From contig CAZMOW010000005.1 in NCBI GenBank assembly GCA_964567975.1, positions 1 through 61,819 of the forward strand: a stretch of DNA of 61,819 nucleotides. The letters are read 5' to 3'. The first letter of the stretch is position 1. Every line of letters starts with the position of its first letter. The notes under the pieces were generated by a model. The model was not told the DNA's origin. It did not search any database and worked only from the letters and a program-made list of their open reading frames with translations. The stretch is from an uncultured Anaerolineales bacterium. GTDB lineage: Bacteria > Chloroflexota > Anaerolineae > UBA1429. Below, one piece after another: positions 11,418-45,038 of this stretch. A program made the translations under genes and the position numbers.

Positions 11418-14400
11418 ATGAATGAGCAAAAAGCGGTCGCGCTTCTGGACAGGCCCGTCATCCGAGGCAGGATCGCGTGGTGGAAGGTGATATATGCTCT
11501 TCTCATACTCTTTATCGTCTTGACCCGTTTATGGGCTCTGGCCCCCCGTGGTTACAGTCATGACGAGAGCATTCATGCCTGGGAATCTTGGAAATTGATC
11601 ACGGGGCAGGGATATAGTCATAATCCCGTCTATCACGGCCCCTTTCTCTACCATTTCACGGCTTCTATCTTTGCCTTGTTTGGGCATAACGATTATACAG
11701 CACGCCTGAGTCCTGCGCTCTTTGGTATTGCGCTGGGGGTTATGCCTCTCCTGTTGAAAAAGTGGCTGGGCAAAAAGGGTGTCCTGGCGGCGACTTTTCT
11801 GATGGCCATCTCTCCCGTGATGATGCATCGTTCCCGTTTCCTGCGTCATGATGTGTACGTCGCCGTGTTTAACCTGCTGCTGTTCATCGCCACCCTTCGA
11901 TATCTGGATCAGCGCAAAGATAAAGATCTCTATCTGGTGGCGGCGGCGGTCTCTTTGGGCTTTTGCGCCAAGGAGACCACCTTTATCACCTATTTCATCT
12001 TTGGTACCTTTTTAGCCCTTTTTCTTCTCTATAAATGGCGCCGCGATAGCACGCGTGCCTGGCGTGAACTGCCCGTGTTCGATCTGATCATCGTCATCGG
12101 CACCCTCATCTTGCCCCTGGCCTCTCCTTTTCCCATCAAGTTGTTGGGAGGAGACCCGCTGGATTATACGCAGCAGGGAGTCCTTTTCTCTGGAGGCATA
12201 TTCCTGATAGTTCTGGGCATCTCTGTGGCCATCGGCTTCTGGTGGGACTGGCGCCGCTGGTTGATATGTGCGGGCGTATTCTACGGCATCTTTGTGCCAT
12301 TGTTCACGACAATGTTCACTAACGGGCGGGGGTTTGCCACGGGTACGGTGGGCCAATTGGGATACTGGCTTTCTCAGCACGGCGTCAGGCGTGGCGATCA
12401 ACCACCGTATTATTACCTTGTGCTGATGCCCATGTACGAGTTCCTTCCCCTGCTTGGTGGGGCTGGCGGGGCGGTGTACTTTGTTTCCAAGAGATCGGCG
12501 GGTGACGGAGGCGCGGAGGAGACTCGTGTGCGAGTTCCATTTATTCCCATGCTCCTCTACTGGAGCGTGTCGGCCTTTGTGATCTATAGTTGGGCCGGGG
12601 AAAAGATGCCCTGGCTGACCATGCACCTGGTTCTTCCGCTGCAACTTTTGGCCGGCTGGGCTGTCGGGCGCCTCTTTGACACGGACTGGTACGAACTGAA
12701 GGAAAAGGGGTCGCTCTGGCTCCTCCTGTTGGTTCCCCTTTTCATCTATGTGATTCTGCGCCTGTTCAGTCTCAGTCCCTCGGCGGGTACGACCAGACAG
12801 GAGTTGAGCGAGACCATGGCCTGGTTGACCTCTCTGGTCGTCGGACTGGGACTGGTGGTTGCCATCTCTCGCATCATCTATCGTCTGCGCCGGAGCCAGC
12901 GCTGGCGCATAATCCTGGTCTCAGTTTTCATCATACTCAGTATGCTGACATTGCGCTTTGCCTGGATGGCGTCCTTTATCAACGCCGATCTCCCAACCGA
13001 GTTTCTGGTCTACGCCCAGGGCTCGCCGGACGTGGCTCTGGTGGCGCAGGAGATTGAGGAGATGTCCCGTCGGCTGACCGGGGGACTGCATATGAAGGTG
13101 GCCTACGATGACGACGCCAGCTGGCCCTTTGTCTGGTATCTACGCAAGTTTGACAATGCCCAGTTCTATGGCAAAGAACCGGAAGGCCCTTTTGATGCCG
13201 AGGTGGTACTTGTCGGGCCACCCAACGAGTCGGCCGTCAAGCCCCTGTTGGGCAACAACTATTACCGGCGTCAGTATCGGCTCATCTGGTGGCCCAATCA
13301 GGACTGGTATATGGATGCAGAACTGAGGAGTGTTCGGGAGGGCATGCAGGGTAAAGGCTCCCTGGGGAGCCTGTCCGATAATCTGCTTTACATGGGCAAG
13401 ATGTTACAGAAAATCTGGCGGGTTATCAGTAGCGAGTCGGCGCGCCAGAACCTCTGGAACGTCTTCTTTTACCGCAAATACGAGGAGGCTTCCTTGACTG
13501 ACTGGCCCCACGTGCACAAATTCGCCATGTACGTGCGGCGGGACGTGGCACAGCAGTTGTGGGACTATGGTCCCGAGGCGCTCACGGCGGCGGAACCCCT
13601 GCCAGGAGACGAATACGTGGAAAAGTGGGAGCAGATCAAGGCGGTCGATGCCTTTGGTACTGCGGGCAGCGAGGGGGGGCAGTTGAACACACCCAAGGGT
13701 GTCGCTGTGGATAGTGAGGGCAATGTTTATGTGACCGATGCCCACAATCATCGGGTACAGGTGTTCGATGGAAACGGCCAGTTCCTGCATCAGTGGGGTG
13801 CAGAGGGTGGTCGCCCCGGCGAGTTCAAGGAGCCCTGGGGGGTGGCAGTGGGGCCCGAGGGGGATGTCTATGTCGCCGACACCTGGAATCACCGCATTCA
13901 GATATTCGATGCTAGGGGGGAACTAGAGCGGGTATGGGGAACCTTTGGTGAAGTGGGGAACCCTATGGATTCGGATGAGCTCCTGTATGGTCCGCGTGAT
14001 GTCGTCGTCGATGAGGAGGGCTATCTCTATATCAGTGATACGGGGAATAAGCGGGTGGTCAAGTATGACCCCGAGGGCAACATGGTCAAGGCCGTGGGCG
14101 GTGCCGGCGACGAGAAAGGTCAGATGCAGGAACCCGTGGGGCTTGCGGTGTCCCGGGCGGGCGTTCTGTACGTCGCCGATACGTGGAACCAGCGTATTCA
14201 GGCCTTTGATGGCGATCTGAACTTTTTGCGCAGTTGGCAGATTCACGCCTGGGGGGGCATGTCCGTAATCAACAAGCCCTACCTGGCGGTGGGTGCTGAT
14301 GGGGGTGTCTATGCCACCGATCCCGAGGGCCAACGTATCATCGCCTTTGATAATCAGGGGCAGCTCTTGCGTGTGTGGGGGCAGGAAGGTAGTGACCTCT

Positions 14401-36097: not shown

Positions 36098-36859
36098 CTA
36101 TCCGTTTTCTTTTTGCAGCAGCCAGGTGGCGATGCCTAAAAAGATAACGCCGTAAATTAACTGTATTCCCAGAGCGATCACAAAACTTCCCGCATTTGCC
36201 GGGCCATTCATGGCCCGGCGCAGGGCGTTCACCGCGTATGTGAGAGGTGACAGCAGGGCTACATTTCGCACCAACGCCGACGCGGCTTCAAGGGGGGCAA
36301 AGGCCCCGGACAGGAAAACCATGATAATGCGTATGACAGTCGCCGGAGGCATGGCCTGTGGGACATCTCGAAAGGGGGCCGCCAGGCAAAGCCCGAAGCC
36401 GGAGAAACAAAAAGAGGAAAACAGAGCGGCGATGGAGAACAGGATCAGGTTTGGTTGTAAAGGCAGGAGCAACAGTACGACCGCCATATAGGTCACAGCC
36501 AGAACGAGGCCAAATACAACACCGGCCAACGCCTTTCCCACCACGATCATTAGCGGGGTGACGGGCGTTGCCAGCATGGTGTGCAACGTCCCTGTCCTTC
36601 TCTCCAGGGGCAGAGATACGGCCTGGATGGCTCCGGCACCGAAAAAGATGGCGATGGCTATCAGTCCCGGGATGATCCTGATGAGTTCCACCTCCCTGTT
36701 GAGAGAGAAAGCCCAGTAGAGGACCAGCGGCAGAAAGAGCCCAAAGGTCAGGTTAGGCCCCTTGAAAAAGTATATTCTGGCATCCTTTTCTCCTATCCAG
36801 AGAACTTTTTTTAATCCCCCGAGCCACCTCTTACTCATTATTTCCTCTCTTGCCTTCAC
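36098..36859 (-). CDS. ABC-2 type exporter permease (DrrB-like)
   Basis: 253 aa, polytopic. The C-terminal ABC-2 signature-like region LSGAFAPLEAASALVRNVALLSPLTYAVNALR is present. Start is GTG 36859 or a downstream ATG. Confidence 0.75.
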   Translation of the reverse strand: MKAREEIMSKRWLGGLKKVLWIGEKDARIYFFKGPNLTFGLFLPLVLYWAFSLNREVELIRIIPGLIAIAIFFGAGAIQAVSLPLERRTGTLHTMLATPVTPLMIVVGKALAGVVFGLVLAVTYMAVVLLLLPLQPNLILFSIAALFSSFCFSGFGLCLAAPFRDVPQAMPPATVIRIIMVFLSGAFAPLEAASALVRNVALLSPLTYAVNALRRAMNGPANAGSFVIALGIQLIYGVIFLGIATWLLQKENG

Positions 36860-36906
36860 TCCAGATGCTCCTCGACGGCCATAGCCTCAGGCGGCAGTCC
36901 TAAGCG
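36856..36906 (-). pseudogene. vestigial 3-prime end of a DrrA-like ATPase gene
   Basis: The minus-strand frame reads RLGLPPEAMAVEEHLE-stop. The intact ATPase at 37884-38846 ends LTGLPPETMTVEERLE-stop. The vestigial TGA (36856-36858) overlaps the permease GTG (36857-36859) as GTGA. Confidence 0.6.
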
Positions 36907-37052
36907 CTCGTTCCCAAGCAGATGCCGATAGCCGTCTCTCCATCTTCTATCAGCCTACCCTTGCTAATCCCCTCAAATTGAGAGACATGCCTCGCAAGCG
37001 AGGCACCGAAACATTTTGGCCACGAGAGAACTGACCCCACCTTCCCTTTGCG

Positions 37053-37754
37053 CTACGATTGCTTGGCCAGACGCAAGATCATGCCCCCCTCGAAAGTCAG
37101 TTCATCAATATGGCCGGCTGACTTGCCGTCCTTGGATATGAGATGGATATGCATCGCGTTTTTCACGCCTTTATCTTTAACGGCAGGAGCGTAGGTGCCG
37201 ATGAACACACCGTGGTGTTTTTCAGAGTAGAACCCGATGATGTTCACCTCTTCGTTTTTCGTGACATAGTTCGCTTTGGATTCCCTGAAAAGTTCGCGGG
37301 TGATGGGCTTGCCCCCCGTGCGGTCGACATTGATGTGCCACCTTAGTTCGGCGGCCTTGCCCGTCACCAGGAAAGGAAAGGCCACAGCGCCGGTGTCGAT
37401 ACCGGCGGCGGTCGCGCGAGCCTTGACGAAGCGCTGCAGGTCATAATAGGTCTTTACATCGGCAGAGACTGATTCGTCGCGCCACTGCGTATTCTTGGTC
37501 CAGGCACCAAAGATCGCCGTGCCGTGGCGGCCATTGTCCATGATAAAGCCATCGCCACGCACCCTGGTCACATAGGGCTTGCTCTCAAAGACAGTGATCT
37601 CTCCATCGAGGTCGCCACAGGCGCCCACGCCGTAGGTAGCGTTGGAACCCGACATCTCGGCAATGGGCAGGACGCCCTCTGTCTTGCCGGAAGCTACGAT
37701 GGCCGCCTGTTTCCCATAGTATTCGACCAGACCGTGGTTGTGATGCTTGGTCAT
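37053..37754 (-). CDS. alpha-acetolactate decarboxylase-family-like protein
   Basis: GVGACGDLDGEITVFESKPY and GFYSEKHHGVF...MHIHLISKDGKSAGHIDEL resemble the ALDC GTF..LDGE and HxHxxxxxxxxxxH zinc-site pattern (recalled). ATG 37754 (MTKHHNH) is preferred over the track start. Confidence 0.45.
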   Translation of the reverse strand: MTKHHNHGLVEYYGKQAAIVASGKTEGVLPIAEMSGSNATYGVGACGDLDGEITVFESKPYVTRVRGDGFIMDNGRHGTAIFGAWTKNTQWRDESVSADVKTYYDLQRFVKARATAAGIDTGAVAFPFLVTGKAAELRWHINVDRTGGKPITRELFRESKANYVTKNEEVNIIGFYSEKHHGVFIGTYAPAVKDKGVKNAMHIHLISKDGKSAGHIDELTFEGGMILRLAKQS

Positions 37755-37883
37755 GTCATCTCTCCCCGTGATTAGTTTGGGTTTGCAGGGTGCGGGTCTT
37801 GCTCTCGGGTACCATCCACATCCTCTCGCTCGAAGCGCAGCCATATGCCGATGGCTGCCTCCCCATTGTTTTTCCTTTTGTCT

Positions 37884-38846
37884 TCACTCCAGCCGTTCCT
37901 CGACGGTCATGGTCTCGGGGGGCAATCCTGTGAGTGCGACAAAGGCGTCTTCCAATGTGGGTTGGCTCGTGTTTAGGGATAACACTTTTAATTGACTCTC
38001 TCGGGCCGTGTCCACAAGGGCCGGGAGTATTTCGGAGGGGTCCTGGACGTACAGTGTAGCCCTTTTTCCAGAGATGATCACCTCTTCTACGTGATCGAGT
38101 TTCTGGAGGCCGATGCGAATCGCGTCCGCTGGATCGTCAAACGAGGCCCGAATGACCTTTCCCCTTTGGGCCAGGCTTTTGAGGTTTTCTGGCGTATCTA
38201 TGGCGACGATTTTGCCCTGGTTCAGGATGGCGATTCGCTGACATAGTTGGTCAGCCTCCTCGATATAGTGCGTTGTGAGGAGAATCGTCACGCCTCTCTC
38301 ATGCAGTTCCCGCATCAGATCGCGGATCAATCGGGCACTCTGGACGTCGAGGCCGGTGGTTGGCTCATCCAAAAAGAGGATTTCGGGCTCGTGGATCAGG
38401 GCGGCGGCGATTGTCAAGCGCTTTTTCAGCCCCGTCGAAAGGGCAGCGGTGCGTCTATCGCGCATGCCGTACAGGCCAAAGAGGTGGAGCAGCTCCTCGG
38501 CTCGCTGGGTCCTTTTCCCCCTGGGCATCCCGTGCAGCCTGGCTACAAAGATGAGGTTATCCCATGCGGTCATCTCGCCGTACAAATCCGCGACATCTGA
38601 GACTACCCCGATGTGTTCCTTCACCTCGATGGGGTGACTGACTATGTCGAGACCAGCCACGGTCGCTGTCCCCGACGAGGGTGTGCTCAGGCCCGTGAGC
38701 ATGCGGATACTCGTCGTCTTGCCCGCGCCATTGGGGCCGAGGAGTCCGAATAACTCGCCCTCTTGCACTGAAAAGCTGACGTCATCGACAGCAAGGAGAT
38801 GGCGGTAATATTTGGTCAGGTGTTGTCCGTCTATCGCTCTGCTCAT
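37884..38846 (-). CDS. ABC transporter ATP-binding protein (DrrA-like)
   Basis: GPNGAGKTT, LSTGLKKRL, ILFLDEPTTGLD. 320 aa. Confidence 0.9.
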   Translation of the reverse strand: MSRAIDGQHLTKYYRHLLAVDDVSFSVQEGELFGLLGPNGAGKTTSIRMLTGLSTPSSGTATVAGLDIVSHPIEVKEHIGVVSDVADLYGEMTAWDNLIFVARLHGMPRGKRTQRAEELLHLFGLYGMRDRRTAALSTGLKKRLTIAAALIHEPEILFLDEPTTGLDVQSARLIRDLMRELHERGVTILLTTHYIEEADQLCQRIAILNQGKIVAIDTPENLKSLAQRGKVIRASFDDPADAIRIGLQKLDHVEEVIISGKRATLYVQDPSEILPALVDTARESQLKVLSLNTSQPTLEDAFVALTGLPPETMTVEERLE

Positions 38847-40688
38847 CCTTGTCTATTGGGATCCTTTCACCTGATTCGGCGATGTGGCGGCCCACTGCCG
38901 CTGGTAGAGGCGCTGGTACGTGGGGTTATTCTCCACCAGTTCACCGTGCGAGCCCTGGCCCGCGATGCGCCCGTCCTCGACAACCACGATGCGATCGGCC
39001 TTGCGCAGGGTGGAGAAGCGGTGGGCGATGATGATGGTGGTGCGATCCTCCCGGATGGCGTCCATGGCCCGTTGGATCAGGGCCTCGGTATAGGGATCGA
39101 CATCGGCCGTGGCCTCATCCAGGATGAGGATCTTGGGATCGGCCAGCAGGGCACGGGCAAAGGCCACGAGCTGCCTCTGACCTCCCGACAAGAGCGCGCC
39201 GCTCTCCCCCACCTCGGTATTATATCCCTGAGGCAGATTTTTGATAAATTGATGTGCCTGGGCGCGCCTGGCCGCCTCCTTGACCTCCTCATCGGTGGCC
39301 TGGGGATCGCCATAGCGTATGTTTTCCATGATGCTGTCCGCAAAGAGGAACACAGCCTGGGGCACCAGCATGATCAGGCGGCGCAGATCCTCGGGGGCGA
39401 TGTGCCGCACGTCTATCCCGTCGATGCTGACTGTACCCTCCTGTGTGTCATAGAGCCGGGCCAGCAGGCGAGCGATGGTGCTTTTGCCCGCGCCCGTAGG
39501 TCCCACCAGGGCGATGGTCTCTGCGGGACGGATGGATAGGTTCAGGTCATGGAGCACGGTTTCCTCATCGTAGCCAAAGGTGACGTCGGAGAAGGTGATG
39601 GCACCCTGAAATCCCCCTTCAGGTGCCTGGGGATGCTCGGGGGGCTCTATCTCTAGGGGTTCATTCATGTATTCGTTGATGCGATCCAGGGAAGCCGCCG
39701 CCGACTGAAAGGTATTGTAAACCAGGCTCAGTTCACGGAGGGGGCCAAAGAAGCGGTTCACATAGCCCATAAAGGCCAGGAGTACACCGATAGTGAGGGT
39801 ACCTTGGGCCACCAACGTGCCCCCGTACCCCAGAACGAGGGCCGTGCCCAGCATGTTGGTGATGGTCATGATGGGAAATACGGCGGCAAAGAGCAGGCTC
39901 ACACGGAGGTTGGCCTGGAGGTTGCGCAGGCTCAGGTTCTCGAACTGTTGCACGGTAAAGGACTCTTGAGAGAGGGACTGTACCACGCGCATGCCAGACA
40001 CTCCCTGCTCCACGCCGGCGTTCACGGCGGCCAGTTCCTGTTGCACCTGACGATAGGCGCCCCGCATCTTTTTGCCCAAGTATCCCATGCTGATGATGAC
40101 CACGGGAATGGAGATCATGGTCACGAGGCTGAGGCGCACGTTGATGAGTAACATGATGACGACTATGCCAATCAAGGTCAGCACATCGCTGAACAGATTG
40201 ACAAGGCTGCTGGATACCATGTCCGACAGGGTGTTGACGTCGTTGGTGAGGCGGGAGGAGATCTGTCCCACGCGTTCCTTACCGTGGAAGGCCATGGATT
40301 GCTGTAACACCCGATGGAACAGATCCCGCCGGATATCATAGATGACGTGTTGGCCGACCCAGGTCGAAAGGTATCCCTGAGCATATTGCGCCGCCCAAAA
40401 GAGGCCGTTGAGGCCCAGGTAAAGGAGGCAGATGAGGCTCAGGCCCCTGAAATCGCCCTGCGCGATATAGTCATCGAGGGCTACCTTGCTCAGATAGGGC
40501 ATCAGGAGCACGGACCCCGCCACCAGCAACATGGCCCCGATGGCCAGCAGCAGGCGACCCACATAAGGTCGCAGATATTGCGTCAGCATGCGTACCGCCT
40601 GACGATCCAGACGGCGAAGACTGTACTCCTCCTCTTCGCCCCGGAGACGCCCCACGAATCCGCCGCGTCTGGGCATGCTCTCACTCCT
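38718..40688. repeat. direct repeat, copy A (~1.97 kb)
   Basis: Aligns with 41153-43122 at an offset of 2434-2435 nt. From 38828 to 40578 I found no differences, and all overlapping track ORFs translate identically. The flanks carry SNPs and a 1-nt indel. Confidence 0.9.
38853..40676 (-). CDS. MsbA-like ABC exporter half-transporter (TMD-NBD), repeat copy A
   Basis: N-terminal six-TM domain, then [31 protein letters not shown] 40676 (MPRRGGF) is homologous to the copy B start; the track start at 40691 adds 5 codons. Identical to copy B except in about the first 35 residues. Confidence 0.85.
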   Translation of the reverse strand: MPRRGGFVGRLRGEEEEYSLRRLDRQAVRMLTQYLRPYVGRLLLAIGAMLLVAGSVLLMPYLSKVALDDYIAQGDFRGLSLICLLYLGLNGLFWAAQYAQGYLSTWVGQHVIYDIRRDLFHRVLQQSMAFHGKERVGQISSRLTNDVNTLSDMVSSSLVNLFSDVLTLIGIVVIMLLINVRLSLVTMISIPVVIISMGYLGKKMRGAYRQVQQELAAVNAGVEQGVSGMRVVQSLSQESFTVQQFENLSLRNLQANLRVSLLFAAVFPIMTITNMLGTALVLGYGGTLVAQGTLTIGVLLAFMGYVNRFFGPLRELSLVYNTFQSAAASLDRINEYMNEPLEIEPPEHPQAPEGGFQGAITFSDVTFGYDEETVLHDLNLSIRPAETIALVGPTGAGKSTIARLLARLYDTQEGTVSIDGIDVRHIAPEDLRRLIMLVPQAVFLFADSIMENIRYGDPQATDEEVKEAARRAQAHQFIKNLPQGYNTEVGESGALLSGGQRQLVAFARALLADPKILILDEATADVDPYTEALIQRAMDAIREDRTTIIIAHRFSTLRKADRIVVVEDGRIAGQGSHGELVENNPTYQRLYQRQWAATSPNQVKGSQ

Positions 40689-41152
40689 CATATTATATGT
40701 ATGAGGGAGCCAGTTCTCCCTCGATTTGACTTTGGGGAAATCCCTGGCATCCTGGGGACTGGCCCAGGGAGCGAAACGCTATCGCTCCTTGTTGCACCCT
40801 ACGGGGTGACTTCTAAGAAAGCTTGCGTCCCTCGTCCCGATGGGTACTTCTCACCCGTATCTTGTGCCTCTGCTTCCCGCTCACCTGTGGCAGCAGCCTC
40901 AGGGCGTTTCCTGAGCCGGAAGCAAGCTCTCATTAACTGCGAGGCTGTTGATCTCATCGGGTACCAGGGATCCCCCTTGGCAAACGTCTCTCACCACACT
41001 GTACACAGGAGGTGCGTATTATGAGCAACAACCCCTTGTTAGTGGGCGTTGACGTCCACCGCAAAACGAACACCATTTGCCTCATGAATCGTTATGGCCA
41101 AGAGATCGGCCAACGGCTCAGTGTCCCAAACAATCGGCAGGGTACGGCAACG
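40689..41152 (+). mobile_element. IS110-family insertion sequence remnant: 5-prime non-coding end plus the first 44 codons of the transposase
   Basis: AGGAGG RBS, then ATG 41021. [44 protein letters not shown] matches the DEDD-type IS110 transposase N-terminus (the G.DVHK pattern). The reading frame runs straight into repeat copy B at 41153. Confidence 0.65.
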
Positions 41153-41280
41153 CTTGCCCGCGCCATTGGGGCCAAGCAGTCCGAAAAGTTCGCCCGATTG
41201 CACCGAAAAGCTGACGTCATTGACAGCAAGGAGATGGCGGTAGTATTGGTCAGGTGTTGTGCGTCTATCGCTCTGCTCAT
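41153..41280 (-). pseudogene. 5-prime fragment of a DrrA-like ATPase gene (start codon to Walker A), frameshifted
   Basis: A diverged copy of 38718-38846: MSRAID.QHLT...[29 protein letters not shown] 1-nt deletion relative to copy A splits it between two frames. It ends exactly at the Lys codon of GPNGAGK. Confidence 0.8.
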
Positions 41281-41286
41281 CCTTGT

Positions 41287-43110
41287 CTATTGGGATCCTT
41301 TCACCTGATTCGGCGATGTGGCGGCCCACTGCCGCTGGTAGAGGCGCTGGTACGTGGGGTTATTCTCCACCAGTTCACCGTGCGAGCCCTGGCCCGCGAT
41401 GCGCCCGTCCTCGACAACCACGATGCGATCGGCCTTGCGCAGGGTGGAGAAGCGGTGGGCGATGATGATGGTGGTGCGATCCTCCCGGATGGCGTCCATG
41501 GCCCGTTGGATCAGGGCCTCGGTATAGGGATCGACATCGGCCGTGGCCTCATCCAGGATGAGGATCTTGGGATCGGCCAGCAGGGCACGGGCAAAGGCCA
41601 CGAGCTGCCTCTGACCTCCCGACAAGAGCGCGCCGCTCTCCCCCACCTCGGTATTATATCCCTGAGGCAGATTTTTGATAAATTGATGTGCCTGGGCGCG
41701 CCTGGCCGCCTCCTTGACCTCCTCATCGGTGGCCTGGGGATCGCCATAGCGTATGTTTTCCATGATGCTGTCCGCAAAGAGGAACACAGCCTGGGGCACC
41801 AGCATGATCAGGCGGCGCAGATCCTCGGGGGCGATGTGCCGCACGTCTATCCCGTCGATGCTGACTGTACCCTCCTGTGTGTCATAGAGCCGGGCCAGCA
41901 GGCGAGCGATGGTGCTTTTGCCCGCGCCCGTAGGTCCCACCAGGGCGATGGTCTCTGCGGGACGGATGGATAGGTTCAGGTCATGGAGCACGGTTTCCTC
42001 ATCGTAGCCAAAGGTGACGTCGGAGAAGGTGATGGCACCCTGAAATCCCCCTTCAGGTGCCTGGGGATGCTCGGGGGGCTCTATCTCTAGGGGTTCATTC
42101 ATGTATTCGTTGATGCGATCCAGGGAAGCCGCCGCCGACTGAAAGGTATTGTAAACCAGGCTCAGTTCACGGAGGGGGCCAAAGAAGCGGTTCACATAGC
42201 CCATAAAGGCCAGGAGTACACCGATAGTGAGGGTACCTTGGGCCACCAACGTGCCCCCGTACCCCAGAACGAGGGCCGTGCCCAGCATGTTGGTGATGGT
42301 CATGATGGGAAATACGGCGGCAAAGAGCAGGCTCACACGGAGGTTGGCCTGGAGGTTGCGCAGGCTCAGGTTCTCGAACTGTTGCACGGTAAAGGACTCT
42401 TGAGAGAGGGACTGTACCACGCGCATGCCAGACACTCCCTGCTCCACGCCGGCGTTCACGGCGGCCAGTTCCTGTTGCACCTGACGATAGGCGCCCCGCA
42501 TCTTTTTGCCCAAGTATCCCATGCTGATGATGACCACGGGAATGGAGATCATGGTCACGAGGCTGAGGCGCACGTTGATGAGTAACATGATGACGACTAT
42601 GCCAATCAAGGTCAGCACATCGCTGAACAGATTGACAAGGCTGCTGGATACCATGTCCGACAGGGTGTTGACGTCGTTGGTGAGGCGGGAGGAGATCTGT
42701 CCCACGCGTTCCTTACCGTGGAAGGCCATGGATTGCTGTAACACCCGATGGAACAGATCCCGCCGGATATCATAGATGACGTGTTGGCCGACCCAGGTCG
42801 AAAGGTATCCCTGAGCATATTGCGCCGCCCAAAAGAGGCCGTTGAGGCCCAGGTAAAGGAGGCAGATGAGGCTCAGGCCCCTGAAATCGCCCTGCGCGAT
42901 ATAGTCATCGAGGGCTACCTTGCTCAGATAGGGCATCAGGAGCACGGACCCCGCCACCAGCAACATGGCCCCGATGGCCAGCAGCAGGCGACCCACATAA
43001 GGTCGCAGATATCGTGTCAGCATGCGTACCGCCTGACGATCCAGATGGCGAAGACTGTACTCCTCCTCTTCGCCCTGGAGACGCCTCATGAACCCGCCGC
43101 GAATAGTCAT
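41287..43110 (-). CDS. MsbA-like ABC exporter half-transporter, repeat copy B (probable heterodimer partner of the upstream gene)
   Basis: 607 aa with the same motifs as copy A. ATGA overlap with the gene at 43107-45038. Confidence 0.9.
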
Positions 43111-45038
43111 GCTCTCACTCCTTCCAGCATTTCACCTTGGAATTGTAGATCGTACATCTCTTTATAGAGCCCACCTTCCCTCATCAGGAGCTCGTGGGCC
43201 GAATGCTCCTCGGTCCCATGCGCCTGCTCCGCGATGCGGCCCTCCTTGAGGAGCACGATGCGGTCCGCCTGCTGCACAGTCCACAGTCTGTGGGCGATGA
43301 CGAGGGTGGTTCGGCCCTCGCGCACCGTCTCCATGGCCTGCTGCATGCGGCGTTCGGTGTCCGCGTCCACGCTGGAGGTAGGCTCATCCAGGATGAAGAT
43401 GCGTGGGTCCGTGAGCAGGACGCGGGCCAGGGCGATGCGCTGGCGTTGCCCGCCTGATAGGCGCACGCCCCTCTCGCCCACGGGCGTGCCATATCCCATG
43501 GGCAGGGCCTTTATAAAGTCGTGTATCTGCACTGTGCGTGCCGCCCACTCGATATCCTCCTGGCTGGCATCGGCGCTCCCGTAGGCGATATTCTCTCCGA
43601 CGGAAGCATCGAACAGGAACACCGTCTGGAGGGCGATACCGATGGCGTCGCGCAGGCTTTTTAGCGTCACGTCGCGGATGTCGTGGCCGTCGATAGTGAT
43701 ACCCCCCTCGTCCACGTCGTAGAAGCGGGGCAGAAGGTGTACCATAGTCGTCTTGCCCGTTCCCGAAGGCCCCACCAGAGCCACCATCTCGCCGGGGGCG
43801 ACGTCCAGATTGATGTCGTGGAGCACCTCATCGCCCTCGTTATAGGAGAAATGGACGTGCTCGTAGCGGATCCGGCCCTCGATGGGGGGTAGGGGATAGG
43901 CGTCGGGCGCGTCTTTTACCTTGGGTTCGAGATCCAGGATATCAAAGATGCGCTCCGCCGCCGCCGTGGCGCGCATAAAGGCGTTCAGCATCATCCCCGT
44001 CTGGCGAATGGGTCGGAAGAGCATGTTGATATAGGTAGTAAAGCCGATCAAGGTGCCCAGAGTGATTACATCTTGTATGACGCCGCCGCCACCGATCCAG
44101 AGAACAAGGGCCATAAACACTCCGCTCAGCACATTCACATAGGGCATCCAGAGGGCGCCGATCTTGCCGGCCTCGATGTTGACACCCATGAGGTTCTCGC
44201 TCTGCCGATCGATCCGTTCCTCCTCCATCTCCTCTCGCCCAAACAGTTTGATGACCTGGATGCCCACCAGGCTTTCCTGTATGGCTGTGGTGAGATCGGC
44301 CAGTTTACGGCGTACCCTGCCAAAGACCGGGCGCAGACGCTTGGCGTAGATCAGCATGCCATGGGCCATAAGGGGGAGGAAAAAGAGGTACAACAGACCG
44401 AGACGCCAATCCCATACCAAAAGGACCGCCAGGATGCCCAGCAAGGTGAGAGAGTTGCCCACCACGATCACCACGGCCCTGGAAAAGAAATCGCTCAGGG
44501 TATCCACGTCCGCCGTGACCCGGGACATCAGGTCCCCGGTGCGAGTGCGATCGTAGAAGGAGAAGGAGAGTTGACTCAGGTGTTCAAAGACGGCATTGCG
44601 GATACCAAAGATGATGCGCTGTCCCACATAGGCGCCCAAATAGAGTCGAGCAAAATCTATGGCCCCCTGCACGAGAGAGAGCGCGAGCAGTCCCCCTGCC
44701 AGCCACCACAGGCGTTCCGTTCGACCGGCAAGGATGAACTGGTCCACGGCGTAGCGGATCAGCCAGGGCGGGGCCAGTTCCATGACTGTGGTAACAAGTA
44801 CGGCCGCGAGGACCAACAGCATTATCTTGCTGTGGGGCCTTATATACTGCAGCAGCCGCTTTAGAATGGGACCTATGTCGGGAGGAGGTTGTCCCCCCCC
44901 GGCCCCTGGACCTTTTTTCTGTCCTTTGGTGTCTTGCGAGCCACTTTTCTGACGGCTCCCCTGTTCTTGGTTCTTGCTCGCTGGTGGAGCATTTGTTTTC
45001 TTCATGATCTGAAGCGTCTCCTTTTTTATCATCTCCAC
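43107..45038 (-). CDS. MsbA-like ABC exporter half-transporter with a low-complexity N-terminal extension
   Basis: About 60 Lys/Gly/Gln/Pro-rich N-terminal residues, a six-TM domain, then GPSGTGKTT, LSGGQRQR, IFILDEPTSSVD. Confidence 0.9.
   Translation of the reverse strand: MEMIKKETLQIMKKTNAPPASKNQEQGSRQKSGSQDTKGQKKGPGAGGGQPPPDIGPILKRLLQYIRPHSKIMLLVLAAVLVTTVMELAPPWLIRYAVDQFILAGRTERLWWLAGGLLALSLVQGAIDFARLYLGAYVGQRIIFGIRNAVFEHLSQLSFSFYDRTRTGDLMSRVTADVDTLSDFFSRAVVIVVGNSLTLLGILAVLLVWDWRLGLLYLFFLPLMAHGMLIYAKRLRPVFGRVRRKLADLTTAIQESLVGIQVIKLFGREEMEEERIDRQSENLMGVNIEAGKIGALWMPYVNVLSGVFMALVLWIGGGGVIQDVITLGTLIGFTTYINMLFRPIRQTGMMLNAFMRATAAAERIFDILDLEPKVKDAPDAYPLPPIEGRIRYEHVHFSYNEGDEVLHDINLDVAPGEMVALVGPSGTGKTTMVHLLPRFYDVDEGGITIDGHDIRDVTLKSLRDAIGIALQTVFLFDASVGENIAYGSADASQEDIEWAARTVQIHDFIKALPMGYGTPVGERGVRLSGGQRQRIALARVLLTDPRIFILDEPTSSVDADTERRMQQAMETVREGRTTLVIAHRLWTVQQADRIVLLKEGRIAEQAHGTEEHSAHELLMREGGLYKEMYDLQFQGEMLEGVRA

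What the first reader, a model, noticed from the sequence alone, without database searches (positions are those of the whole stretch)
40689..41152. IS110-family stump sitting exactly at the repeat junction, possibly retaining its bridge-RNA-encoding 5-prime end
The only unique sequence between the two repeat copies is 464 bp. It ends in an AGGAGG RBS and the first 44 codons of an IS110-type DEDD transposase ([44 protein letters not shown]). It then breaks directly into the Walker A codons of the ATPase fragment. IS110-group elements carry a structured non-coding RNA in the region upstream of the recombinase gene, reported in 2024 for IS621 as a bispecific bridge (seek) RNA. The 332 bp upstream of this ATG contain several local hairpins: TCCCTGG/CCAGGGA at 40741-40770, GAGCGA/TCGCTC at 40769-40787, and CTCAGG/CCTGAG at 40898-40915. 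The locus may therefore preserve an orphan bridge-RNA gene. It also implicates an IS110 element in creating the duplication junction.
Basis: partly seen in the sequence, partly recalled or inferred. Interest (0 to 1): 0.6.

Follow-up and report, generated by a model that had tools for sequence, protein, structure and literature searches.

The report
IS110 stump with intact bridge-RNA gene
The 464 bp between two copies of a transporter gene is the dead front end of an IS110-type jumping gene: it keeps its whole guide ("bridge") RNA gene but has lost its enzyme and promoter, so it is an informative fossil and not a working system.

Summary
Window 40689-41163 is the left part of an IS110-family element, 98-99% identical to intact copies in metagenomes. 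Position 40689 is the element's first base, directly after a CT core. All 332 nt upstream of the ATG at 41021 are the element's non-coding left end.

In 42 non-redundant relatives this left end folds into a conserved structure: a 5' stem-loop, a target-binding stem-loop and a donor-binding stem-loop. RNAalifold predicts 57 pairs, 40 with compensatory changes. The predicted guide segments covary with the flanking target and with the element's own right end (permutation p <= 2e-4). This is the IS621 bridge-RNA architecture.

The clade inserts at Shine-Dalgarno sites (CAT-N7-CTCCT|T), as IS900 is known to do.

The stump is probably inert. The -35 box lies in the missing right end, only about 47 recombinase codons remain, and no intact copy is in the assembled genome.

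The IS|ATPase junction lies in an 11-bp microhomology, so it arose by illegitimate recombination, not transposition. This is a new member of a known kind, of modest interest.

The parts
40684..40688 (+). Left target flank CTC plus the CT core (core at 40687-40688). On the minus strand this is the AGGAG Shine-Dalgarno of the ABC exporter copy, whose likely ATG is at 40675-40673.
   Evidence: 52 distinct insertion sites of relatives end in ..CTCCT. The uninterrupted site is at 43117-43128 in copy B and is conserved in congeners G003 and G001.
40689..41020 (+). Complete non-coding left end (LE) of the IS110-family element, 332 nt.
   Evidence: Homology to intact elements in independent contexts starts exactly here. 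An nhmmer profile of 42 LEs hits 40691-40978 at E=2.6e-76.
40691..40696 (+). -10 box TATTAT of the circle-junction promoter. The -35 TTGACA lies in the missing right end.
   Evidence: In relatives the right end reads TTGACA-N13 followed by CT. Joining right end to left end gives TTGACA-17 nt-TAT(A/G/T)AT. No sigma-70-like promoter is found in the integrated context.
40703..40722 (+). P1, the 5' stem-loop (GAGGGAG / CTCCCTC, loop CCAGTT).
   Evidence: Present in the MFE fold. Compensatory changes are visible in alignment A3. The loop is complementary to the P3 loop, and the two covary.
40734..40747 (+). P2 5' arm, a long-range closing helix that pairs with 40964-40975.
   Evidence: 86% of cells are canonical pairs and 7 of 11 pairs show compensatory changes, against 38-60% for shifted registers.
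40751..40768 (+). P3 hairpin (CCTGGG / CCCAGG, loop GACTGG complementary to the P1 loop).
   Evidence: 94% canonical, 4 of 6 pairs compensatory. Loop-loop match averages 6.43 nt against 5.06 +/- 0.15 for permuted partners.
40769..40833 (+). Target-binding stem-loop. Basal stem P4 is 40769-40779 / 40825-40833. The left target guide plus core is ATCGCTCCT at 40781-40789. The apical hairpin is 40794-40810. The right target guide is AAGAAAG at 40815-40821.
   Evidence: P4 is 97% canonical with 5 compensatory pairs. The left target guide matches the left flank and the right target guide is complementary to the right flank; both exceed all 5000 permutations. The window-private C at 40772 breaks one P4 pair.
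40836..40961 (+). Donor-binding stem-loop. Basal stem P6 is 40836-40844 / 40953-40961. The left donor guide region is CCCGTATCTT at 40854-40863. Upper stems are P7 (40873-40883 / 40912-40921) and P8 (40884-40889 / 40898-40903). The right donor guide region is at 40932-40943 and ends in GCGAG.
   Evidence: P6 is 97% canonical with 7 of 9 pairs compensatory; all 9 P7 pairs and all 6 P8 pairs are compensatory. The left donor guide covaries with the last bases of the right end in relatives. CGAG is the complement of the CT core plus the first two IS bases, CG.
40964..40975 (+). P2 3' arm.
41007..41012 (+). RBS (AGGAGG) of the recombinase gene.
41021..41163 (+). First 44-47 codons of the DEDD recombinase. 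They include only the first catalytic Asp (VGVDVH); the rest of the gene and the right end are missing.
41153..41163 (.). 11-bp microhomology CTTGCCCGCGC that holds the breakpoint. It is shared by the intact IS gene (codons about 45-48) and, on the other strand, by the Walker-A (GAGK) codons of the ABC ATPase gene.
   Evidence: loose ends at 41163
41153..41280 (-). 5' fragment of an ABC ATPase gene (through Walker A), the left edge of repeat copy B.

Best explanation
Window 40689-41163 is a truncated IS110-group insertion sequence.

History (inferred). An intact element inserted at the Shine-Dalgarno sequence of the 607-aa ABC exporter gene (target CACTC-CT-TCC), with its left end facing that gene. 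Later, illegitimate recombination within an 11-bp identity joined two sequences: CTTGCCCGCGC in recombinase codons about 45-48 and the same 11 bp on the other strand of the Walker-A codons of the downstream ATPase gene. The join produced a 2.4-kb tandem duplication and left only the left end and about 47 codons of the recombinase. The full element expected upstream of copy B has since been lost, either by precise excision or by replacement with an IS-free allele.

Bridge-RNA gene (shown at sequence level). The retained left end encodes the element's bridge RNA:
- a 5' stem-loop;
- a target-binding stem-loop whose left guide (UCGCUCCU, anti-Shine-Dalgarno-like) equals the top strand left of the insertion point, and whose right guide is complementary to the right flank;
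- a donor-binding stem-loop whose guides match the element's right end and left end.

Mechanism in intact relatives (inferred by analogy with IS621). Excision to a circle abuts the right and left ends and creates a TTGACA-17-TATNAT promoter that transcribes this RNA. The RNA then pairs the circle junction with an SD site for recombination at the CT core.

Status of this copy (inferred). It lacks the -35 element, the donor junction and the recombinase, so it is most likely an inert fossil.
For: Identity and boundaries:
- 98% identity to the full-length IS110 recombinase P0002.
- Homology with intact copies in different flanks begins at 40689.
- Multi-copy genomes fix the ends and the CT core.

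RNA structure:
- RNAalifold on 42 LEs gives 57 pairs, 40 with compensatory changes.
- Each helix is 84-97% canonical, against 12-76% for shifted registers.
- The window's own fold reproduces P1, P2, P5, P6 and P7, with z = -4.5.

Guides:
- Left target guide against left flank at positions -8 to -4: 113 matches against a null of 81 +/- 6.
- Right target guide against right flank: 118 against 93 +/- 5.7.
- Neither was reached in 5000 permutations.
- The left donor guide tracks right-end variants, for example CCGTATT, CGTATCA, CCGAATC and CCATATC.

Target and inertness:
- CAT lies 3-12 nt from CTCCT in 38 of 52 sites, against 8.8 +/- 2.8 in shuffled flanks.
- No sigma-70-like promoter is found in place.
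- The own genome has no right end and no further recombinase sequence.

Junction and ancestral state:
- 11-bp microhomology.
- Contigs carrying the intact IS diverge from the window at 41163.
- Congeners G003 and G001 carry the operon in single copy with an uninterrupted target.
Against: - No RNA data exist for this organism, so transcription, ends and processing of the RNA are unshown.
- The genome is a MAG: 89% complete, 215 contigs. Repeats such as IS copies are often unassembled, so an intact copy that supplies recombinase in trans cannot be excluded.
- The left end is almost undamaged. It has about 7 differences from L003 in 475 nt, of which one breaks a P4 pair and one changes the second IS base. 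Sequence decay alone therefore does not prove inactivity.
- A conserved internal TTGAC-N16-TGGCATCCT motif could be a weak promoter.
- No public run holds the window's two junctions, so the physical arrangement rests on one assembly.
- The about 10% divergence of the repeat edges beside a 100% identical core is not explained by a simple recent duplication.
Confidence: 0.85

Rival explanations
1. The orphan bridge-RNA gene is still expressed and acts in trans. Expression would come from read-in transcription or from the conserved internal TTGAC-N16-TGGCATCCT motif. The RNA would act either with a recombinase from an unassembled intact copy or as an anti-SD-like regulatory RNA.
For: The left end is 98-99% identical to active-looking copies, and all helices but one pair are intact. 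A congener (G002) carries the same IS at 95% identity. The MAG is incomplete. The internal motif is nearly invariant in 42 relatives.
Against: No consensus promoter is found on either strand. No recombinase, right end or second full left end is found in 2.95 Mb. The host operon transcribes the opposite strand, so any RNA would meet antisense transcripts. The window-private 40772 G>C lets the left guide pair with the P4 arm in the MFE fold. No experiment supports a trans role for solo left ends.
Confidence: 0.08
2. The arrangement is an assembly construct. The true molecules would be a single-copy operon plus either a strain variant or a small circle (core + IS stump + ATPase fragment). The assembler would have threaded a graph loop as a tandem duplication.
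For: The 1751-bp core is 100% identical while both edges are about 89-90% identical, which is what a collapsed repeat node traversed twice would give. The genome is a fragmented MAG. Congeners have one copy. No public run confirms the junctions.
Against: Whichever way the loop is threaded, the IS|ATPase join and the IS|SD join must both exist in real DNA. An 11-bp overlap is too short for a k-mer graph to create the join by itself (inference). The left junction is a canonical insertion junction for this IS clade.
Confidence: 0.1
3. The IS110 recombinase itself made the duplication junction, by bridge-RNA-guided off-target or half-site recombination.
For: IS110 elements have been linked to segmental amplifications in other bacteria (abstract of bioRxiv 10.64898/2026.03.19.712850, seen).
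Against: The breakpoint lies inside the recombinase ORF, not at an element end. It has no CT-core or guide-matching context. It sits in an 11-bp perfect identity between the two partners, which is the signature of microhomology-mediated illegitimate recombination.
Confidence: 0.03

Closest known systems
IS621 (E. coli) and its 177-nt bridge RNA (Durrant et al. 2024, PMC11208160; Hiraizumi et al. 2024, PMC11208158)
   Same: - IS110-group layout, with the non-coding left end upstream of a DEDD/Tnp recombinase.
- A CT core at both ends.
[quoted passage not shown]
- An RNA with a 5' stem-loop, then a target-binding and a donor-binding stem-loop.
- A left guide equal to the top strand (7 nt plus core) and a short right guide complementary to core plus right flank.
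- A right donor guide ending in CGAG preceded by G, opposite CT-CG-T; this parallels the G161·dT12 wobble described for IS621.
   Different: - Recombinase of 413 aa.
- Left end of 332 nt, with the structured part about 275 nt against 177 nt.
- An extra long-range closing helix (P2) and an extra hairpin (P3) whose loop is complementary to the 5' stem-loop loop.
- A longer, branched donor-loop apex.
- The target is a Shine-Dalgarno site, not a REP element.
- The host is Chloroflexota-like.
- In the window the element is truncated.
IS900 / IS901 / IS902 group of Mycobacterium avium (target CATGNNNNNNTCTCCTT; Doran et al. 1997, cited in PMC8141618)
   Same: An IS110-family element that inserts, in one orientation, at the reverse complement of an RBS plus start codon. 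The motif found here (CAT-N7-nCTCCT|T) is essentially the same.
   Different: I did not measure sequence relatedness of the recombinases. From memory, IS900 is described as inserting between the RBS and the ATG. Here the crossover is at the CT on the distal side, so the gene keeps AGGAG and the ATG.
seekRNA of IS110-type ISEc21 and the IS1111 family (Siddiquee et al. 2024, PMC11187229)
   Same: An RNA derived from the non-coding region that carries short matches to both strands of the target; it lies upstream of the transposase in the IS110 type.
   Different: Different target and a longer structured region. No biochemical data exist for this clade.

Membership tests
IS110 family (IS110 group) insertion sequence | N-terminal DEDD / RuvC-like domain (PF01548) | tested here: met
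   The 44-aa piece scores E=1.5e-4 and 22 bits, below the 29-bit cut-off because it is short. It is 98% identical to P0002, which scores 90 bits and passes NF033542 at 211 bits against a cut-off of 140.
IS110 family (IS110 group) insertion sequence | C-terminal Tnp domain with catalytic Ser (PF02371) | tested here: not met
   Absent from the window: the gene stops being IS-derived at 41163. It is present in intact relatives. The window copy is therefore a fragment, not a complete member.
IS110 family (IS110 group) insertion sequence | No terminal inverted repeats, a conserved core dinucleotide at both ends, and site-specific insertion | tested here: met
   In relatives a CT core flanks both ends and the target ..CTCCT|T.. 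is found in 52 distinct sites. The window shows only the left junction.
IS110 family (IS110 group) insertion sequence | Long non-coding end upstream of the recombinase gene | tested here: met
   332 nt at 40689-41020, colinear with intact copies.
Bridge RNA (IS621 type) | [quoted passage not shown] | tested here: met
   Sequence level only. The right end reads TTGACA-N13, followed by the CT core, then CG and TAT(A/G/T)AT of the left end, which gives a 17-nt spacer in all relatives that have both ends. The window keeps only the -10 box.
Bridge RNA (IS621 type) | [quoted passage not shown] | tested here: met
   RNAalifold plus per-helix covariation; single-sequence fold.
Bridge RNA (IS621 type) | Guides in the first internal loop match the target (left flank top strand; right flank complement) | tested here: met
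   Permutation tests over 55 and 46 events, p <= 2e-4. For the window, 7 of 9 positions of the left guide match its own flank.
Bridge RNA (IS621 type) | Guides in the second internal loop match the donor (right end and left end) | tested here: met
   The left donor guide covaries with the right-end terminus across 21 distinct pairs. The right donor guide's CGAG complements CT+CG. The right-donor side barely varies, so it is weakly informative.
Bridge RNA (IS621 type) | The RNA is transcribed, binds the recombinase and is required for recombination | not testable with these tools
   No RNA-seq is available for this organism.
Rfam families | Match to a curated covariance model | tested here: not met
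   cmscan over 40000-42000 at E <= 10 returned only chance snoRNA hits, none covering the structured left-end RNA.

The most novel reading that the evidence does not exclude
This Chloroflexota IS110 clade carries an enlarged bridge RNA. Beyond the IS621 design it has a covarying loop-loop (kissing) contact between the 5' stem-loop and an added hairpin, a long-range helix that clamps the target and donor modules together, and a nearly invariant internal promoter-like motif. These extras could form a regulatory layer that lets integrated copies or solo left ends, such as this stump, still make a guide RNA. In that case an orphan left end with an anti-SD-like guide could still steer recombination by a recombinase supplied in trans, or bind Shine-Dalgarno sequences.
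Probability: 0.1. Interest if true: 0.55.

Novelty: new member of a known kind. Interest (0 to 1): 0.3.

Why it matters
For this genome, the stump dates and explains a structural scar. It shows that an SD-targeting IS once sat in front of the exporter gene. It also shows that the tandem duplication junction arose by an 11-bp microhomology join, which explains why the ATPase fragment breaks exactly in Walker A.

More generally, the roughly 100 relatives collected here give a clean natural data set: 52 distinct insertion sites with guide-target and guide-donor covariation. The clade's bridge RNA homes to ribosome-binding sites through an anti-SD-like guide, which offers a guide-level rationale for the long-known IS900-type target preference. 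The extra RNA modules (closing helix, kissing loops) may interest people engineering bridge recombinases. None of this changes the known mechanism.

Tried and rejected
- Rfam cmscan of 40000-42000 at E <= 10: only chance snoRNA matches.
- Search for an intact copy in the own genome by DNA, protein, Pfam family, nhmmer profiles of the left and right ends, and tblastn: only the stump and a roughly 50-bp left-end remnant on contig C1.
- Public reads: no run held more than 37% of the sampled words. The four best, laid as contigs, carry the intact IS or unrelated ABC paralogs and none bridges either window junction, so the assembly could not be confirmed or refuted.
- Sigma-70 consensus scan of 40500-41400: no promoter on either strand. 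One terminator-like site is simply the P1 stem-loop followed by a T-rich stretch that relatives lack.
- Reader hairpin TCCCTGG/CCAGGGA: 91% canonical but only 1 compensatory pair. The competing P2 and P3 helices have 7 and 4.
- Reader hairpin GAGCGA/TCGCTC: relies on the window-private C at 40772.
- Reader hairpin CTCAGG/CCTGAG: replaced by P7/P8 in the consensus.
- Literature search for IS110 + Shine-Dalgarno targeting in bridge-RNA papers found nothing direct. The IS900 literature supplied the precedent.
- A covariance model was not built, because the forecast calibration time for about 300 positions was too long. nhmmer was used instead.

Full report
**What is in the sequence.** On the minus strand lie two copies of an ABC half-transporter gene, at 38853-40691 and 41287-43110. 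A 43-codon 5' fragment of an ABC ATPase gene ends at its Walker A motif (41153-41280). Between the transporter copies, on the plus strand, is an RBS (41007-41012) and an ORF starting at 41021 with [15 protein letters not shown]. The repeat copies are 38718-40688 and 41153-43122. Their 1751-bp core is identical and their edges are about 89-90% identical.

**Identity of the ORF fragment.**
- Pfam places the 44 residues at the start of PF01548 with E=1.5e-4 and 22 bits. This is under the 29-bit cut-off only because the piece is short.
- A search among longer proteins found a 413-aa protein, P0002, that is 98% identical over the fragment.
- P0002 passes PF01548, PF02371 and NCBIfam NF033542 'IS110 family RNA-guided transposase'.
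- The fragment keeps only the first catalytic Asp.

**Boundaries of the element.**
- I fetched contigs encoding P0002 and relatives, 19 genome loci and 80 metagenome loci.
- Copies in unrelated flanks become alignable with the window at 40689.
- Genomes with several copies fix both ends. The left end reads ...CTC-CT|CGTAT(A/G/T)AT and the right end reads TTGACA-N13|CT|TT...
- The whole 332 nt upstream of the ATG is the element's non-coding left end.
- Joining the right end to the left end through one CT gives TTGACA-17 nt-TATNAT. This is the circle-junction promoter described for IS621 (PMC11208160). The window keeps only the -10 box (40691-40696).

**The RNA.** I aligned 42 non-redundant left ends (A3).
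- RNAalifold predicts 57 pairs, 40 with compensatory changes.
- My per-helix counts give 84-97% canonical cells, against 12-76% for registers shifted by 1-3 columns.
- The architecture is:
  - a 5' stem-loop P1 (40703-40722);
  - a long-range closing helix P2 (40734-47 / 40964-75);
  - a hairpin P3 (40751-68);
  - a target-binding stem-loop, with P4 at 40769-79 / 40825-33 and an apical hairpin at 40794-810;
  - a donor-binding stem-loop, with P6 at 40836-44 / 40953-61 and upper stems P7 and P8.
- The window's own MFE fold reproduces most of this (-119.4 kcal/mol, z = -4.5).
- The P1 and P3 loops are complementary and covary, for example CCAGC/GCTGG, CCAAC/GTTGG, CCGGC/GCCGG and GTCAAC/GTTGAC. 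The mean match is 6.43 nt against 5.06 +/- 0.15 for permuted partners.

**Guides.** Following the IS621 rules (PMC11208160; PMC11208158), I compared the 5' strand of the first internal loop with the left flank, and its 3' strand with the right flank.
- Informative cases are clear. L019 has target ...CCCCCT and loop ...CACCCCCT. L088 has AAAGCCCT in both. L039 has AGACCTCCT in both. L024 has GAACCT against CAACCT.
- Over 55 distinct events the variable positions -8 to -4 match 113 times, against 81 +/- 6 for permuted guides.
- Right-flank complementarity gives 118 matches, against 93 +/- 5.7.
- Neither value was reached in 5000 permutations.
- In the donor loop, the 5' strand follows the last bases of the right end, for example CCGTATT, CGTATCA, CCGAATC and CCATATC.
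- The 3' strand ends in G-CGAG, opposite CT-CG-T. This is the arrangement with a G·T wobble seen in the IS621 structure.
- In the window, the left guide plus core is ATCGCTCCT (40781-89) and matches 7 of 9 positions of its own flank.

**Target.**
- All 52 distinct left flanks end in ..CTCCT or a guide-matched variant.
- 38 of the 52 have CAT 3-12 nt away, most often 7 nt, against 8.8 +/- 2.8 in shuffled flanks.
- The clade therefore inserts at Shine-Dalgarno sites, always with the left end facing the gene. The left guide (CCUCCU) looks like the anti-SD of 16S rRNA.
- The preference is not new for the family: IS900 has the target motif CATGNNNNNNTCTCCTT (PMC8141618, citing Doran et al. 1997).
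- In the window the target is the SD of the exporter gene. The uninterrupted site survives in copy B (43117-43128) and in the congeners G003 and G001.

**The junction with the ATPase fragment.**
- The intact IS (L003) continues ...GGCAACG-CTTGCCCGCGC-AATCG..., and the intact ATPase gene reads ...CGTCGT-CTTGCCCGCGC-CATTGG.... The breakpoint therefore lies somewhere within an 11-bp identity at 41153-41163.
- Contigs from other samples that carry the intact IS follow the window to 41163 and then continue as L003 does.
- This is the signature of microhomology-mediated illegitimate recombination, not of IS110 recombination, which acts at the element ends.
- It also explains why the ATPase fragment breaks in Walker A: the GAGK codons happen to be the reverse complement of recombinase codons about 45-48.
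- The congeners have a single-copy operon, so the duplication is specific to this lineage.
- A simple unequal exchange predicts a full IS upstream of copy B, and none is there. Precise excision or replacement by an IS-free allele has to be assumed (inference).
- The diverged edges beside an identical core remain unexplained. They fit gene conversion, an inter-allelic origin or assembly collapse, and I could not separate these.

**Is the orphan RNA gene alive?** Probably not.
- The -35 element lay in the lost right end, and no sigma-70-like site replaces it.
- No recombinase, right end or second full left end is found in the 2.95-Mb assembly.
- The host operon reads through the stump on the other strand.
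- A window-private substitution (40772 G>C; G in other copies) breaks a P4 pair and lets the left guide pair with the P4 arm.
- Against this, the stump is only about 1.5% diverged from intact copies, the MAG is 89% complete, and a same-genus genome carries the IS at 95% identity. A trans-acting role cannot be excluded, and I give it about 8%.

**Verdict.** The finding is real and correctly interpreted in outline. It is a truncated member of a known family with a well-supported bridge-RNA gene of the IS621 type. The family-level extras (SD homing explained by the guide, extra RNA modules) are of moderate specialist interest. The stump itself is an ordinary genomic fossil.

Noticed in passing
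G000 contig C1 about 12556-12606 (= L002:1501-1552): A second, smaller remnant of the same IS left end, about 50 bp: the -10 box, P1 and TTGAC. It abuts AGGAGG-N6-ATG of a sulfatase-like gene, so this genome has been hit at SD sites at least twice and both copies are dead.
   Followed up: partly
loci L003-L107 (left flanks); window 40684-40688: The whole clade, about 100 loci mostly from Chloroflexota/Anaerolineae MAGs, inserts at CAT-N7-nCTCCT|T. That is the SD plus start codon of a gene on the opposite strand, and the gene keeps AGGAG and its ATG.
   Followed up: yes
window 40710-40715 and 40757-40762; alignment A3 columns about 30-36 and 79-85: [quoted passage not shown] This suggests a kissing-loop or pseudoknot contact; neither word occurs in the IS621 structure paper (PMC11208158) when searched, and the other IS621 paper was not searched for them.
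   Followed up: partly
window 40726-40753: A nearly invariant TTGAC(T/A)-N16-TGGCATCCT lies inside the left end. It could be an internal weak promoter (extended -10 type) or a protein-binding single-stranded segment. The consensus scan did not call it.
   Followed up: no
L111 (G002:C68:1-1957) and L123 (G002:C39 end): A same-genus genome carries this IS at 95% identity, inserted at a different SD-like site whose flank TCGCTCCT matches the left guide perfectly. Its recombinase gene matches only residues 1-232 before unrelated sequence, so it is another truncated copy or a contig chimera.
   Followed up: partly
window 40642-40691: Copy A of the exporter gene has a cluster of private substitutions in its first roughly 12 codons (MPRRGGFVGRLRG against [13 protein letters not shown] in copy B and congeners). 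The second IS base is A instead of G, which creates an extra in-frame ATG at 40691-40689.
   Followed up: partly
L117 (G003:C5) and L120 against window 36516-38846: In congener G003 the ATPase gene is followed almost directly by the permease gene. The roughly 1-kb acetolactate-decarboxylase-like gene of the window lies elsewhere, about 6 kb away, next to a second permease copy.
   Followed up: no
window 41012-41308 (+): The 98-codon ORF (the 95-aa product from its ATG at 41021 is on record as a predicted protein, P0001) is a chimera of about 47 IS110 codons and the antisense of the ATPase fragment. It is not a real gene product.
   Followed up: partly
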